The notes beneath the pieces were generated by a model. It ran no database searches. It saw only the letters and a program-made list of their open reading frames with translations, and had not been told where the DNA came from. Below, piece by piece: positions 41,287 through 47,120 of a stretch of 48,538 nt of DNA; the stretch's first letter is position 1; the number at the start of each line of letters is the position of its first letter. Location: the IMG/VR virus record IMGVR_UViG_2740892445_000002. One strand, given 5' to 3'. The position numbers were made by a program, and so were the translations under genes. The DNA comes from a virus (lineage: Duplodnaviria > Heunggongvirae > Uroviricota > Caudoviricetes).

Positions 41287-41712
41287 TTAGTGCATCACCA
41301 CGGCATTTCCTGCAGGGCCACCACGGTTCATCTGATTGAAACCGGCAATCGCCACTGCGACAAAATCATCAGCGTCTCTCACCAGTCGTTCCCGCGTCTC
41401 CACCAGCTCCCGAAAATAGGCTGAACTGTGGCTGCGCATTCGGGCCACCAGCAAAGGTGGCATTGCCTTTTCGATCGCTGGTAACAACGCCTGAATTTTT
41501 TCAACAGCATCAGGGGTGTCTTTCTCTACCCAGCGGAAAATTTTCTGGGTATTACGAGCTAGGGCTTCCGGATGGCTGTCGCCGTACAGTTCCGGAAATG
41601 TCATTCCCAGTTCAAAATACGCTTTGGTAATCTTCGCAGTTGGTACTTTCTCGCCATCCGGATGCGCCCAGGCATTCATCGCCATGCGGATGTGCTCATG
41701 GCTGATTTTCAT
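41287..41712 (-). CDS. YdaT-like protein (CII-position regulator of Rac-type switch)
   Basis: 141 aa starting MKISHEHI..., immediately downstream of the Cro-like gene. Confidence 0.55.
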   Translation of the reverse strand: MKISHEHIRMAMNAWAHPDGEKVPTAKITKAYFELGMTFPELYGDSHPEALARNTQKIFRWVEKDTPDAVEKIQALLPAIEKAMPPLLVARMRSHSSAYFRELVETRERLVRDADDFVAVAIAGFNQMNRGGPAGNAVVMH

Positions 41713-42019
41713 GAATCATTTGCCTCTTGATATTTCGGGTATGCTCGTTTTCGTCATTTGGTTGCTTCATCAACATATTCAGCGAATAGCATGACGAGCG
41801 TCGTAAGTATGACCAGTCAACATCAGGACGAAGTTCTTCGCACAGAACACCACCTCTTGTTGCACGTTCAATTGCTGGACATCGCTCAGCAGGCAACTGA
41901 CGTACACCTTTGATCCATTGATTTACGCTTGGAGGTGATACACCTAAAAGCCTAGCCATTGCAGATTGCCCACCGACAACAGCACACGCTCGTTTGAATG
42001 AATAGTTCTCTTTTTTCAT
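41696..42019 (-). CDS. Cro-like HTH regulator (YdaS/DicC-like)
   Basis: 107 aa, HTH ...QSAMARLLGVSPPSVNQWIKG...; divergent from repressor gene across operator repeats. Confidence 0.7.
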   Translation of the reverse strand: MKKENYSFKRACAVVGGQSAMARLLGVSPPSVNQWIKGVRQLPAERCPAIERATRGGVLCEELRPDVDWSYLRRSSCYSLNMLMKQPNDENEHTRNIKRQMIHENQP

Positions 42020-42040
42020 CGAATGAACTCCAAAAAAACA

Positions 42041-42125
42041 CGAAACAATATTAGGCGACGCCTAATACAAATGTCAATAGGCGTCGCCTAATACAAATGA
42101 AGTAGGGATTGCCTAATGCAATGAG
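42041..42125. promoter_or_regulatory. operator region (OR-like) with repeated palindrome TTAGGCG-N-CGCCTAA
   Basis: Two full copies (about 42051-42065 and 42077-42091) each followed by TACAAATG, plus a degenerate third. Confidence 0.7.
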
Positions 42126-42144
42126 CATAGGAGAGTATTAAGCA

Positions 42145-42621
42145 ATGCTTAGTGGTAAAGACTTAGGCCGAGCGATAGAGCAGGCCATTAACAAAAAAAT
42201 TGCATCAGGATCCGTCAAATCAAAGGCGGAGGTAGCGCGTCACTTCAAAGTCCAACCACCATCAATCTATGATTGGATTAAGAAAGGTTCGATAAGTAAA
42301 GATAAACTTCCAGAGCTATGGCGTTTCTTTTCTGATGTGGTTGGCCCAGAGCATTGGGGGCTTAACGAATACCCCATACCAACCTCCCTCATTTCAGATA
42401 CAAAAAGTGAACTTTTAGACATAAACAGCCTTTATCAAGCCGCCTCTGATGAAAAAAGAGCCATTGTGGCTTTTCTCTTATCAGAAAATGCCACGGAACC
42501 TAGTTGGGTTGATCATGACGTTCGCGCCTACATTTCCACAATGGAGATGAAGGTAGGTAAGTATTTGAAAGATCAAGAATCAGAACGGAAAAGCCAGAAC
42601 ATCACCAAAACGGGAACTTAA
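42145..42621 (+). CDS. CI-like prophage repressor (RacR/DicA-like HTH, no peptidase domain evident)
   Basis: 158 aa with N-terminal HTH-like region; divergent arrangement with Cro-like gene. Confidence 0.7.
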   Translation: MLSGKDLGRAIEQAINKKIASGSVKSKAEVARHFKVQPPSIYDWIKKGSISKDKLPELWRFFSDVVGPEHWGLNEYPIPTSLISDTKSELLDINSLYQAASDEKRAIVAFLLSENATEPSWVDHDVRAYISTMEMKVGKYLKDQESERKSQNITKTGT

Positions 42622-42714
42622 ACTTATATGGTCTGATGGGAATTTCCTAGAGCCCGTTATCTAGCCCCCCATCACCTCTTCCACATATCATCGCCTATTA
42701 GGTTTGCGTCAAAA

Positions 42715-42760
42715 ACATTAGGCGCAGCCTATTGACAATTAATTAGGCATTACCTATAGT
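42715..42760 (+). promoter_or_regulatory. pL-like promoter TTGACA-17-TATAGT overlapped by operator half-sites
   Basis: Near-consensus sigma70 hexamers; TTAGGCG-like half-sites at about 42717-42734. Confidence 0.6.
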
Positions 42761-42940
42761 TCTCCCATACCAACCCACCCCGCCCACAGAACACCGGGCA
42801 ATACTTCGAGTTACCCGGCAGTGATTAGGGGTTAAGTAGCCAGCCCGAGGCGTATGAACATGACGGCGGGAACACTTTGTATAACAGCGCAGCAGGTTTT
42901 TAGTTCCGCTACCCCGGCGTTAAGGGGAAATGAGGTCAAC

Positions 42941-43093
42941 ATGGATACGCTCAATCTTAGCAACAACGAATCTCTGGTATGCGGTGTGTTCCCTAACCAG
43001 GACGGCACCTTCACCGCGATGACGTATACCAAAAGTAAAACGTTTAAAACCGCAGCTGGCGCGCATCGCTGGTTAGCAAGAAACACTGACTGA
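42941..43093 (+). CDS. small protein, YdfA-like
   Basis: About 50 aa from internal Met (MDTLNLSNNESLVCGVFPNQDGTF...), first gene after pL-like promoter. Confidence 0.4.
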   Translation: MDTLNLSNNESLVCGVFPNQDGTFTAMTYTKSKTFKTAAGAHRWLARNTD

Positions 43094-44002: not shown

Positions 44003-44179
44003 AAAGTGAATTTTGTGATGCGGTGAATGCGGCCATGCGCACGCAGAACAGTTAAAACAAGCGGTCTTTTACTCGCGTAACAGACATCAACTAACAATCC
44101 GGCGTTAATTGTTAACTGGTTAACGTCACCTGGAGGCACCAGGCACGGCATCACAAAATTCATTGTTGAGGACGCGATA

Positions 44180-44648: not shown

Positions 44649-47120
44649 ATGAGTAAAATCTTTATTTGCGCGGCTATTCCTGATGAACAGGCCATAAAAG
44701 AAGATAGCGCTGTTGCGGTGGCCACTGCCATTGAAGCCGGTGATGAGCGTCGCGCACGCGCAAAATTTCACTGGCAATTTCTGGAGCAATTCCCGGCAGC
44801 TCAGGACTGCGCTTATAAATTTATTGTCTGTGAGGATAAACCCGGCATACCCCGCCCTGCCCTCGATTCCTGGGATACCGAATATATGCAGGAAAACCGC
44901 TGGGATGAGGCGTCTGCTTCCTTTGTCCCGGTCGAGACTGAATCCGATCCGATGAACGTCACCTTTGACAAGCTGGCCCCTGAAGTACAGAACGCCGTCA
45001 TGGTTAAGTTCGACACATGTGAAAACATCACTGTTGATATGGTGATTAGCGCACAGGAATTGTTGCAGGAAGACATGGCAACATTCGACGGCCATATCGT
45101 TGAAGCGTTGATGAAAATGCCAGAAGTTAACGCCATGTATCCGGAGCTTAAGCTGCATGCCATCGGGTGGGTTAAGCATAAATGCAAGCCTGCTGCTAAA
45201 TGGCCCGAAATTCAGGCAGAGATGCGCATCTGGAAAAAACGTCGCGAAGGTGAACGCAAGGAAACCGGGAAATACACATCTGTCGTTGATATCGCCCGTT
45301 CCAGAGTAAACCAACAGAACACTGAAAACTCTGCTGAAAAAACCGGGGCTGTCACTGTTGCCGTTCGCCGAGAATACAAACAGACATGGAAAACACTCGA
45401 CAATGAGCTGGCCTGCGCCCTCTGGCCCGGTGATGTGAATGCGGGAAATATTGACGGTACCATCCATCGCTGGGCGACAAATGAGGTTATCGACAAGGAT
45501 CGCGAAGACTGGAAGCGTATCTCAGCATCAATGCGCAAACAGCCCGAAGCACTTGGCTATGACCGTCAGACTATTTTTGGCCTTGTCCGTGAACGTCCGA
45601 TCGACATTCACAAAGATCCCGTTGCACTGAACAAATATATCAGCGAATACCTGACAACAAAGGGCGTGTTTGAGCATGAAGAAACAGACCAGAGCTCTGC
45701 TGATGCTCTCCAGCCGTCAGCAGCACAAACTGCTCCAGTGGAGACGGCAGAATCCGATACTCAAAAAAATGAAATCCTGGTGGAAGCTGAACCATCTGTA
45801 GAGCGTGAAGGACCATTTTATTTCGTCTTTACCGATAAGGGCGAGGAAAAATACGGCAGGGCAAACAAACTTTCTGGTCTGGACAAGGCGCTGGCTGCCG
45901 GCGCTACCGAAATCTCAAAAGAGGAATATTTTGCCCGAAAAAATGGCACATATACGGGCTTACCGCAAAATGTAGATACCGCTGAAGATTCCGTACAACC
46001 AGAGCCGGTAAAAGTTACCGCTGACGAAGTAAACAAAATTATGCAGGCAGCCAATATCAGCCAGCCTGACGCCGATAAATTGCTTGCTGCATCACGTGGT
46101 GAATTTGTTGAAGGGATTAGCGACCCTAATGATCCGAAATGGGTGAAAGGGATCCAGAGTCGCAACGCTGAGGACCAGAATCAGCCCGGCGTGAAACAAA
46201 ATGAGCCAGAAGCGGAACAAAACAGCCCGGATACGCAACAAAACGGGTCAGAAGAGCAACAACCAGAACCAGCAGTGCAACAGGAAGTGGAGAAAGTTTG
46301 CACCGCATGCGGTCAGACCGGTGGCGGCAACTGTCCTGACTGTGGTGCGGTGATGGGCGACGCAACCTACCAGGAAACATTCGATGGAGAGAGCCTGGTT
46401 GAAGTTCAGGAAAATGCTCCGGAGGAAATGGAAGGCACTGAAGATCCGCACAAGGAGAACACTGACAGCGATCAGTATCACGCCAGCGATAATAAAACTG
46501 GCGAGACAGCAAATCCCTTAATTAAGGTGAACGGTCATCGTGAAATCACATCCACCAGCAGGTTGTGGCACCATCTGATGATTGACCTTGAAACAATGGG
46601 AAAAAATCCTGATGCGCCAATAAACGCTATAGCCGGTAAGTTTTTTGATCCGGCAACCGGAGAGATGGGGCCAGAATTCAGCAAAACTATCGATCTGGAA
46701 ACCGCAGGCGGGGTCATCGAACGGGACACCATTAAGTGGTGGCTGAAACAGTCACGCGAAGCACAATCCGCCATTCTGACCGATGAAATCCCGTTGGATG
46801 ATGCACTGCTGCAATTCCGGGAATTTATCGACGAAAACTCCGGTGAATTTTTTGTTCAGGTCTGGGGTAACGGTGCAACTTTCGACAACGTGATTTTACG
46901 CCGTTCATATGAACGGCAGGGGATCCCCTGCCCGTGGCGTTACACCAATGATCGCGATGTAAGAACGATGGTTGCTCTGGGACTGGTGATGGATTTCGAC
47001 GCAAGAACGACTATTCCATTCGAAGGTGAACACCATAACGCCCTGCACGATACGCGTTACCAGGCAAAATACGTTTCAGCCATCTGGCAAAAACTGATCC
47101 CGAGTCAGGCTGATTTTTAA
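44649..47120 (+). CDS. large protein with C-terminal DEDDh 3'-5' exonuclease domain
   Basis: 823 aa; C-terminal motifs IDLETMG (Exo I), GNGATFDNVIL (Exo II), HNALHDTRYQAKY (Exo III); central CxxC...CxxC. Confidence 0.75.
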   Translation: MSKIFICAAIPDEQAIKEDSAVAVATAIEAGDERRARAKFHWQFLEQFPAAQDCAYKFIVCEDKPGIPRPALDSWDTEYMQENRWDEASASFVPVETESDPMNVTFDKLAPEVQNAVMVKFDTCENITVDMVISAQELLQEDMATFDGHIVEALMKMPEVNAMYPELKLHAIGWVKHKCKPAAKWPEIQAEMRIWKKRREGERKETGKYTSVVDIARSRVNQQNTENSAEKTGAVTVAVRREYKQTWKTLDNELACALWPGDVNAGNIDGTIHRWATNEVIDKDREDWKRISASMRKQPEALGYDRQTIFGLVRERPIDIHKDPVALNKYISEYLTTKGVFEHEETDQSSADALQPSAAQTAPVETAESDTQKNEILVEAEPSVEREGPFYFVFTDKGEEKYGRANKLSGLDKALAAGATEISKEEYFARKNGTYTGLPQNVDTAEDSVQPEPVKVTADEVNKIMQAANISQPDADKLLAASRGEFVEGISDPNDPKWVKGIQSRNAEDQNQPGVKQNEPEAEQNSPDTQQNGSEEQQPEPAVQQEVEKVCTACGQTGGGNCPDCGAVMGDATYQETFDGESLVEVQENAPEEMEGTEDPHKENTDSDQYHASDNKTGETANPLIKVNGHREITSTSRLWHHLMIDLETMGKNPDAPINAIAGKFFDPATGEMGPEFSKTIDLETAGGVIERDTIKWWLKQSREAQSAILTDEIPLDDALLQFREFIDENSGEFFVQVWGNGATFDNVILRRSYERQGIPCPWRYTNDRDVRTMVALGLVMDFDARTTIPFEGEHHNALHDTRYQAKYVSAIWQKLIPSQADF

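What the first reader, a model, noticed from the sequence alone, without database searches (positions are those of the whole stretch)
42041..42760. Immunity switch with palindromic TTAGGCG-N-CGCCTAA operators and a near-consensus pL-like promoter
Two full and one degenerate copies of a 15-bp palindrome lie between the divergent repressor and Cro-like genes, and related half-sites overlap a TTGACA-17-TATAGT promoter downstream of the repressor gene, giving an OR/OL-type architecture.
Basis: seen in the sequence. Interest (0 to 1): 0.35.

Follow-up and report, generated by a model that had tools for sequence, protein, structure and literature searches.

The report
Rac prophage repressor switch (known)
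This is the on/off control region of a Rac-type E. coli prophage: the RacR repressor's palindromic binding sites sit on two outward-facing early promoters, an arrangement that is largely already published for E. coli K-12 and so is ordinary.

Summary
The window holds the racR / ydaS / ydaT immunity module of a Rac-type lambdoid prophage. RacR here is 93% identical to K-12 RacR, and residues 1-80, which contain the DNA-binding domain, are 100% identical.

Six sites exist:
- Four lie between or over the divergent genes, at 42051-65, 42077-91, 42102-16 and 42138-52.
- Two lie 25 bp apart on the TTGACA-17-TATAGT promoter downstream of racR, at 42718-32 and 42743-57. These are full sites, not half-sites.

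All five sites with at most one mismatch in the 48.5 kb window fall inside this 705 bp.

The cassette site|TTGACA|n5-6|site|(T)ATAT is used twice in mirror orientation, once for a PR-like and once for a PL-like promoter. It is conserved with RacR-type DNA-binding domains in Mixta, Morganella and Pigmentiphaga (PL pairs also in Proteus and Achromobacter). It is absent from three heteroimmune E. coli prophages that share the same flanks.

The OR part is already published (EMSA, ChIP-qPCR, DNase I footprints, mapped PydaS). I found no description of the OL/pL pair for Rac, but it is expected and fits the published derepression of the left operon.

The parts
41287..41712 (-). ydaT-like gene (cII analogue), second gene of the rightward-type operon
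   Evidence: Pfam YdaT_toxin PF06254, E=7e-10. The homologous K-12 gene is annotated ydaT.
41696..42019 (-). ydaS-like gene (Cro analogue)
   Evidence: Pfam YdaS_toxin PF15943, E=4e-30, and P22_Cro, E=1e-8. 86% identical to K-12 YdaS.
42048..42077 (-). PR-type promoter (PydaS): -35 TTGACA at 42077-42072, 18-bp spacer, -10 TAATAT at 42053-42048
   Evidence: Promoter scan, 10 of 12. Both hexamers are identical in K-12, where this promoter was mapped by primer extension and abolished by a -10 substitution (PMC9638921).
42051..42065 (.). Operator O1, TTAGGCGACGCCTAA, covering the spacer and -10 of the PR-type promoter
   Evidence: Perfect match and identical in K-12. This is the region protected at the lowest RacR concentration in the published footprint.
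42077..42091 (.). Operator O2, ATAGGCGTCGCCTAA, abutting the -35 of the PR-type promoter
   Evidence: Perfect core. In K-12 only the central 3 bp differ, GTC versus TGT.
42102..42116 (.). Operator O3, GTAGGGATTGCCTAA (1 mismatch), overlapping the probable -35 of the leaderless racR promoter
   Evidence: identical in K-12. The overlap with a -35 is my inference from a 16-17 bp spacing to the -10.
42131..42136 (+). Probable -10 (GAGAGT) of the PRM-type, leaderless racR promoter; equivalent to the published PracR3 -10 GAGAAT of K-12
   Evidence: Positional homology in the alignment. PracR3 was mapped in K-12 (PMC9638921). Not tested for this allele.
42138..42152 (.). Operator O4, TTAAGCAATGCTTAG, centred on the racR ATG; likely the autorepression site
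   Evidence: 2 mismatches, so not significant alone. It is invariant in 51 variants and present at -6 in every distant homologue. Published as the operator overlapping the ATG.
42163..42168 (+). Single TTAGGC half-site inside racR
   Evidence: also noted in K-12 (PMC9638921).
42145..42621 (+). racR repressor gene (158 aa)
   Evidence: NCBIfam RacR equivalog, 246.7 bits against a cutoff of 200. 93% identical to K-12 RacR and 100% over residues 1-80. No Peptidase_S24 domain.
42692..42704 (.). Everted half-sites CGCCTA-T-TAGGT upstream of OL; a possible weak third OL element
   Evidence: The core CCTATTAGG is invariant among the E. coli variants while its flanks vary. No full site is present here, and it is not conserved in distant loci. 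Function unknown.
42718..42732 (.). Operator OLa, TTAGGCGCAGCCTAT, abutting the -35 of the pL-type promoter
   Evidence: Perfect core. Only the centre varies among alleles. Found at the same position in Mixta, Morganella, Proteus, Achromobacter and Pigmentiphaga loci (three of them aligned).
42732..42760 (+). pL-type promoter: TTGACA at 42732-37, 17-bp spacer, TATAGT at 42755-60; predicted start near 42767
   Evidence: 11 of 12. The hexamers are 92% invariant in 51 variants. Homology with heteroimmune prophages resumes at about 42766.
42743..42757 (.). Operator OLb, TTAGGCATTACCTAT, covering the spacer and -10 of the pL-type promoter
   Evidence: 1 mismatch. A second site 25 bp from OLa is conserved in the distant loci.
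42941..43093 (+). First recognisable gene of the leftward-type operon (YdaF/DUF1391-like). Its listed ORF starts at 42854. A RecE-like exonuclease follows at 44649-47120.
   Evidence: Pfam DUF1391, E=5e-28, on residues 31-77 of the listed ORF. PHROGs hits for this gene and the exonuclease.

Best explanation
This is the immunity (lysis/lysogeny) switch of a Rac-type lambdoid prophage.

RacR dimers bind 15-bp operators TTAGGC-n3-GCCTAA. One 44-bp cassette, operator | TTGACA | 5-6 bp | operator | (T)ATAT, is used twice in mirror orientation:
- On the minus strand it is the PR-type promoter of ydaS-ydaT and the replication genes (O2 and O1).
- On the plus strand, about 640 bp away and just past racR, it is the pL-type promoter of the early-left operon, which runs from the DUF1391 gene to the RecE-like exonuclease (OLa and OLb).

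In each copy, one dimer abuts the -35 and the other covers the spacer and -10. Bound repressor therefore excludes RNA polymerase from both lytic promoters.

Two further sites act on racR's own weak, leaderless promoter. O3 overlaps its -35 region and O4 sits on the start codon, giving autoregulation.

Shown here: the sites, their geometry, their statistical excess, their conservation, and their co-inheritance with the repressor.
Taken from published work on K-12 (identical DNA-binding domain, near-identical operators): RacR binding to the intergenic sites, the PydaS and PracR start sites, octamer formation, and 40- to more than 100-fold derepression of both operons when RacR falls.
Inferred: RacR occupancy and repression at OLa/OLb, and any OR-OL loop.
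For: - Identity of the module.
- Site statistics: 3 perfect and 5 at-most-1-mismatch sites, all within 705 bp of a 48.5-kb window.
- Promoters.
- Conservation in 51 unique Rac-type variants: half-site cores are 93% invariant, the central n3 50%, and other non-coding positions 57% (Fisher p = 1e-4 and 2e-8).
- The PR and PL cassettes align with each other within the window and with those of K-12, Morganella and Pigmentiphaga. Distant RacR-type loci keep three sites upstream, at about -66, -41 and -6, and all of them except Klebsiella L009 also have a pair 25 bp apart on a TTGACA..TAATAT-type promoter after the repressor gene.
- Three heteroimmune E. coli prophages with the same flanks carry no RacR sites in the immunity region. 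One of them (L094) repeats a palindrome of its own in both the intergenic and the downstream region.
- Literature: EMSA and ChIP-qPCR (PMC5700373); DNase I footprint, consensus and promoters (PMC9638921); octamer (PMC11014345); left-operon derepression (PMC6765115; bioRxiv 10.64898/2026.09.06.749655).
Against: - No binding, transcription-start or reporter data exist for the OL/pL pair, in this allele or, as far as I could find, in K-12.
- Left-operon derepression after RacR loss could be partly indirect, for example through YdaS/YdaT, excision, or read-through of the Rho-dependent terminator inside or after racR (PMC4150792).
- OLb has a non-consensus base (A or T instead of G) at the first position of its right half-site in all 51 variants, so its affinity may be low.
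- The Klebsiella homologue L009 shows no OL pair within the 2.5 kb fetched.
- The -10 of the racR promoter differs from K-12 (GAGAGT versus GAGAAT) and is untested.
Confidence: 0.85

Rival explanations
1. The downstream pair (42718-42757) is not a repressed promoter in its own right. It is mainly an auxiliary anchoring site that lets a RacR octamer loop to OR and tighten repression or autoregulation there, and the TTGACA/TATAGT match contributes little transcription.
For: RacR is reported to be an octamer (PMC11014345). Two dimers at PR plus two at PL would account for eight subunits. Distant relatives have only three intergenic sites but usually the 2+2 arrangement.
Against: The -35 and -10 hexamers are 11 of 12 consensus. 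They are as conserved as the operators across variants and across genera. They also point into a gene array that is derepressed 40-70-fold on RacR loss. Looping and promoter repression are not mutually exclusive, as lambda OL does both. The OR-OL distance shows no conserved helical phase.
Confidence: 0.08
2. The palindromes are chiefly targets of the Cro-like YdaS (or of YdaT) rather than of RacR.
For: In lambdoid switches Cro shares the repressor's operators. The literature describes YdaS as competing with RacR for the operators (PMC11014345).
Against: RacR footprints and shifts this DNA in K-12. The YdaT site is a different sequence, ATGATT/TTGATT-n6-AATCAA (abstract of PMC9986795). Sites track the RacR N-terminal domain even where the C-terminal domain is swapped for Peptidase_S24. 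Shared use by YdaS remains likely but does not displace RacR.
Confidence: 0.04
3. The inverted repeats act as RNA hairpins or intrinsic terminators, or are chance or duplication remnants without function.
For: The terminator scan flags O1 and OLa on the minus strand as weak stem-loops followed by T-rich tails. O1 and O2 sit in a 26-bp direct duplication.
Against: The number of terminator-like hits equals the shuffle expectation (3 versus 1.8). The stems are short with 3 G-C pairs. The sites sit exactly on the -35 and -10 of two promoters in a fixed geometry across genera. They are far in excess of chance, are footprinted by RacR in K-12, and the pL leader has no unusual fold (z = +0.85).
Confidence: 0.02

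Closest known systems
Rac prophage immunity region of E. coli K-12 (racR - ydaS - ydaT; RacR operators (T/A)TAGGC-n3-GCCTA(T/A))
   Same: Same genes in the same order. RacR is 93% identical and 100% identical over residues 1-80. O1, O3 and O4 are identical base for base, and O2 and OLa differ only in the central 3 bp. PydaS has the same TTGACA/18/TAATAT, and the TTGACA/17/TATAGT promoter follows racR in both.
   Different: An allelic variant: about 88% DNA identity over the module, a different RacR C-terminal third, YdaS of 107 versus 98 aa, and GAGAGT instead of GAGAAT at the PracR3 -10. The papers I could search describe only the intergenic operators. The OL/pL pair is not mentioned in them.
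CP-933P cryptic prophage switch of E. coli O157:H7 (PaaR2 / YdaS / YdaT, with OR and a described PL/OL)
   Same: Divergent repressor and YdaS-YdaT genes, four inverted repeats in the intergenic region, an octameric repressor, and a second promoter with -35/-10 elements identical to PR plus operators at the leftward-promoter position (PMC8630535).
   Different: A different repressor and a different operator sequence (18-bp palindromes, consensus half GTTTAGTAA). A toxin-antitoxin pair is co-transcribed with that repressor, and there is none here.
Bacteriophage lambda CI / Cro with OR and OL
   Same: Divergent PR/PRM with several operators, a leaderless repressor mRNA, a second operator set on pL beyond the repressor gene, operators inherited with the repressor as one immunity cassette, an octamer-forming repressor, and about 24-26 bp centre-to-centre spacing of adjacent operators.
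   Different: 15-bp sites with a 3-bp centre rather than 17-bp sites. Four plus two sites rather than three plus three. One site lies on the start codon. RacR has no Peptidase_S24 autocleavage domain. YdaS is reported not to repress racR.

Membership tests
Rac-type (RacR/YdaS/YdaT) immunity module | Repressor is a RacR orthologue | tested here: met
   NCBIfam equivalog NF049929, 246.7 bits against a cutoff of 200. 93% identity to K-12 RacR and 100% over residues 1-80.
Rac-type (RacR/YdaS/YdaT) immunity module | Divergently transcribed ydaS (Cro-like) followed by ydaT (cII-like) | tested here: met
   PF15943, E=4e-30, and PF06254, E=7e-10, on the minus strand next to racR.
Rac-type (RacR/YdaS/YdaT) immunity module | Inverted repeats (T/A)TAGGC-n3-GCCTA(T/A) in the intergenic region, overlapping PydaS (TTGACA/18/TAATAT) and the racR ATG | tested here: met
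   Four sites at 42051-65, 42077-91, 42102-16 and 42138-52. Promoter. Alignment to K-12.
Rac-type (RacR/YdaS/YdaT) immunity module | RacR protein binds these sites and represses ydaS | not testable with these tools
   Shown for K-12 by EMSA, ChIP-qPCR, a reporter and DNase I footprinting (PMC5700373, PMC9638921). Transferred here because the DNA-binding domain and three of the four sites are identical.
Lambda-like bipartite OR/OL switch (architecture) | A second set of the same operators on an outward early promoter beyond the repressor gene | tested here: met
   OLa and OLb on TTGACA/17/TATAGT. Conserved in Mixta, Morganella, Proteus, Achromobacter and Pigmentiphaga loci (three of them aligned).
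Lambda-like bipartite OR/OL switch (architecture) | Operators and promoters are inherited with the repressor as one immunity cassette | tested here: met
   Three heteroimmune prophages with the same ydaT and early-left flanks lack all RacR sites in the immunity region. One (L094) repeats its own palindrome in both regions. Homology resumes at about 42766, just after the pL -10.
Lambda-like bipartite OR/OL switch (architecture) | Cooperative binding and OR-OL looping by a repressor octamer | not testable with these tools
   An octamer is reported by size-exclusion chromatography (PMC11014345). The OR-OL distance is 639-641 bp in E. coli and 591-2155 bp elsewhere, with no phase signal.
CI/LexA-type cleavable repressors (Peptidase_S24 family) | C-terminal S24 autopeptidase domain allowing RecA-stimulated cleavage | tested here: not met
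   No Peptidase_S24 hit for the window's RacR. The Pigmentiphaga relative with the same N-terminal domain does have it (PF00717, E=4e-15).

The most novel reading that the evidence does not exclude
The conserved functional unit may be 2+2 rather than the published model of four dimers on the four intergenic repeats. In this reading, two RacR dimers on the PR cassette and two on the previously undescribed PL cassette are joined as one octamer across a DNA loop of about 640 bp, shutting both lytic promoters at once. The 26-bp extra repeat of E. coli Rac would then be a lineage-specific add-on. The fact that relatives in other genera have only three intergenic sites, but in five of the six examined a PL pair, is what suggests this.
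Probability: 0.3. Interest if true: 0.35.

Novelty: already known. Interest (0 to 1): 0.13.

Why it matters
There is little new biology here. The finding correctly recognises a prophage immunity switch whose right-hand half has been dissected experimentally in E. coli K-12.

It has two modest uses:
- It points to an OL/pL operator pair that the RacR papers I could search do not mention. This pair would explain directly why kilR, recET and the other left-arm genes are derepressed when RacR is lost.
- It gives a clean, cross-genus definition of the RacR operator (TTAGGC-n3-GCCTAA) and of a 44-bp promoter-operator cassette. That definition is useful for annotating Rac-type prophages and for predicting which of them share immunity.

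Tried and rejected
I replaced it with the n3 consensus, which is.
- TAGGCG alone is not enriched in the window (10 found versus 15 expected).
- Structured RNA or an antitermination element in the pL leader, 42766-42880: no Rfam match and no unusual stability (z = +0.85). Its conservation across heteroimmune prophages is explained by its being the shared early-left transcript beyond the immunity-cassette boundary.
- A third full OL operator: only everted half-sites at 42692-42704. A 2-mismatch site appears in some alleles (L005) but at 19-bp spacing, and it is not conserved in distant loci.
- Helical phasing of the OR-OL distance as evidence for looping: no signal.
- A solved structure of RacR: none found by sequence in the PDB.
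- Literature search for a described Rac OL/pL: none found in four searches and ten papers.

Full report
**What is in the sequence**

The region 41287-43093 reads as a lambdoid immunity region.
- On the minus strand lie a YdaS/Cro-like gene (41696-42019; PF15943, E=4e-30; P22_Cro, E=1e-8) and a YdaT/cII-like gene (41287-41712; PF06254).
- On the plus strand lies a 158-aa helix-turn-helix protein (42145-42621), followed by a DUF1391 gene.
- The 158-aa protein passes the NCBIfam equivalog model for RacR (246.7 bits, cutoff 200). It is 93% identical to K-12 RacR, with residues 1-80 identical.
- Further out, the minus-strand side carries replication genes and the plus-strand side a RecE-like exonuclease. 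The two arms therefore correspond to the early-right and early-left operons.
- The DNA matches Rac-type prophages in 1085 of 5426 complete E. coli genomes over at least 80% of its length. It is 99.5% identical to one O2:H6 strain and about 88% identical to K-12. It also matches one sequenced phage, vB_EcoS-683R6, whose record annotates a 'Rac prophage repressor'.

**Checking the observation**

Four details needed correction.
- A fourth palindrome, TTAAGCAATGCTTAG (42138-52), spans the racR ATG.
- The two elements on the downstream promoter are full sites. TTAGGCGCAGCCTAT (42718-32) abuts the -35. TTAGGCATTACCTAT (42743-57) covers the spacer and -10.
- The minus strand carries TTGACA/18/TAATAT (42077-42048), with O2 abutting its -35 and O1 covering its -10.
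- The conserved motif is TTAGGC-n3-GCCTAA.

On chance: scanning the whole window with TAGGC-n3-GCCTA gives 3 perfect sites (0.01-0.05 expected) and 5 with at most one mismatch (0.75-1.4 expected). All five lie within 42052-42756, and the probability of such clustering is about 2e-7.

**Anatomy**

- Centre-to-centre spacings are 26, 25 and 36 bp on the OR side and 25 bp on the OL side.
- The PR unit read on the minus strand and the PL unit read on the plus strand align as one 44-bp cassette: site | TTGACA | 5-6 bp | site | (T)ATAT. Both lytic promoters are thus bracketed the same way by two operators.
- O3 overlaps the likely -35, and O4 the start point, of the leaderless racR promoter. That promoter was mapped in K-12 as PracR3. 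Here its -10 is GAGAGT rather than GAGAAT.

**Comparative evidence**

1. Within the Rac type. Among 51 unique variants from E. coli genomes and IMG/VR contigs, the ten core positions of each site are 93% invariant. The central three bases are 50% invariant and other non-coding positions 57% (p = 1e-4 and 2e-8).
2. Across genera. RacR-type proteins in Mixta, Morganella, Proteus, Klebsiella, Achromobacter and Pigmentiphaga are 57-75% identical to the query. All have sites at about -66, -41 and -6 from the ATG. All but the Klebsiella locus also have a pair 25 bp apart on a TTGACA..TAATAT-type promoter after the repressor gene, 65 to 1884 bp past the tblastn match to RacR, which in the two S24-fused repressors covers only the N-terminal domain.
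3. Domain swap. In the two Burkholderiales loci the same N-terminal domain is joined to a much longer C-terminal part. In Pigmentiphaga this is a Peptidase_S24 domain. For Achromobacter I read it as S24-like from the sequence, but it was not scanned. The operators are unchanged, which places the specificity in the N-terminal domain.
4. Heteroimmune controls. Three E. coli prophages share the ydaT flank and the early-left leader but carry other repressor/cro pairs. They have no RacR sites in the immunity region. One of them repeats its own palindrome (TGTTTT-n6-AAAACA) both in the intergenic region and downstream of its repressor. Homology to the window resumes at about 42766, just after the pL -10. 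The operators and both promoters therefore belong to the immunity cassette.

**What is already known**

For K-12 Rac:
- The three GCCTAA/TTAGGC repeats, three EMSA complexes, ChIP-qPCR and reporter repression were published in 2017 (PMC5700373).
- DNase I footprints, the consensus (T/A)TAGGC-n3-GCCTA(T/A), the operator over the ATG, the extra TTAGGC inside racR, PydaS and three racR promoters followed in 2022 (PMC9638921).
- Four inverted repeats and a RacR octamer were reported in 2023 (PMC11014345).
- RacR depletion raises ydaS/T more than 100-fold and ydaG, ydaF, kilR, ydaE, racC, recET and related genes about 40-70-fold (PMC6765115; bioRxiv 10.64898/2026.09.06.749655).
- A Rho-dependent terminator in racR blocks read-through towards kil (PMC4150792).
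- An OL/PL analogue has been described for the sister prophage CP-933P (PMC8630535).

None of the papers I could search describes the OL/pL pair of Rac itself.

**Mechanism**

RacR dimers occupy O1/O2 and OLa/OLb and exclude RNA polymerase from both outward promoters. O3 and O4 tune racR's own promoter. Binding at OR is shown in K-12 and transferred here on the strength of an identical DNA-binding domain and near-identical sites. Binding at OL and any OR-OL loop are inferred. RacR has no S24 domain, so induction is unlikely to proceed by RecA-stimulated self-cleavage.

**Verdict**

The only increment is the unreported, though predictable, OL/pL pair and its conservation across genera.

Noticed in passing
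L011:2501-3406 (Pigmentiphaga daeguensis) and L010:2501-3598 (Achromobacter MAG): The RacR-type N-terminal DNA-binding domain (recognition region SIYDWIKKG unchanged) is fused to a longer C-terminal part instead of the RacR oligomerisation domain. In L011 this part is a LexA-like Peptidase_S24 domain (PF00717, E=4e-15). In L010 it looks S24-like by eye but was not scanned. The TTAGGC-n3-GCCTAA operators and the PR/PL cassettes are retained. This is a modular swap between a probably cleavable and a non-cleavable repressor of the same immunity specificity.
   Followed up: partly
window 42766-42900: The transcribed leader just after the pL -10 is 87-95% identical in many E. coli prophages and phages with unrelated repressors (H15-H18, H29-H32), and weakly similar even in an Actinobacillus phage (H33). 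It marks the right-hand boundary of the exchangeable immunity cassette. There is no Rfam match and no unusual RNA fold, so why this untranslated stretch is so conserved is unexplained.
   Followed up: partly
window 42049-42121: E. coli Rac-type regions have four operators (-93, -67, -42, -6 from the racR ATG). Relatives in other genera have three (-66, -41, -6). The extra unit looks like a 26-bp tandem duplication (GCCTAATACAA repeated at 26-bp spacing).
   Followed up: partly
window 44009-44157 (+): Weak, sub-threshold Rfam match to the sRNA family STnc100 (22 bits against a gathering score of 47, E=0.07), lying between the small early-left ORFs and the exonuclease gene.
   Followed up: no
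window 42692-42704: Everted half-sites CGCCTA-T-TAGGT, 27 bp upstream of the centre of OLa. The core CCTATTAGG is invariant among E. coli variants although the flanks vary. It is not a canonical operator, and its role is unknown (a weak third OL site, or part of the Rho-dependent termination zone?).
   Followed up: partly
L004 (JARKOR010000130.1, labelled MAG: Candidatus Nanosynbacter sp.): A 5.2-kb contig binned as a Saccharibacteria MAG encodes a RacR 93% identical to the query. This is almost certainly an E. coli prophage fragment mis-binned into that MAG.
   Followed up: no
L094:663-680 and L094:1385-1402; L095:1190-1230: Heteroimmune prophages show OR/OL-style operators of their own. L094 has TGTTTT-n6-AAAACA both in the intergenic region and after its LexA-family repressor gene. 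L095 has TACCCATGGGTA and TACCTATGGGTA after its repressor gene. The bipartite layout recurs with different specificities at the same chromosomal slot.
   Followed up: no
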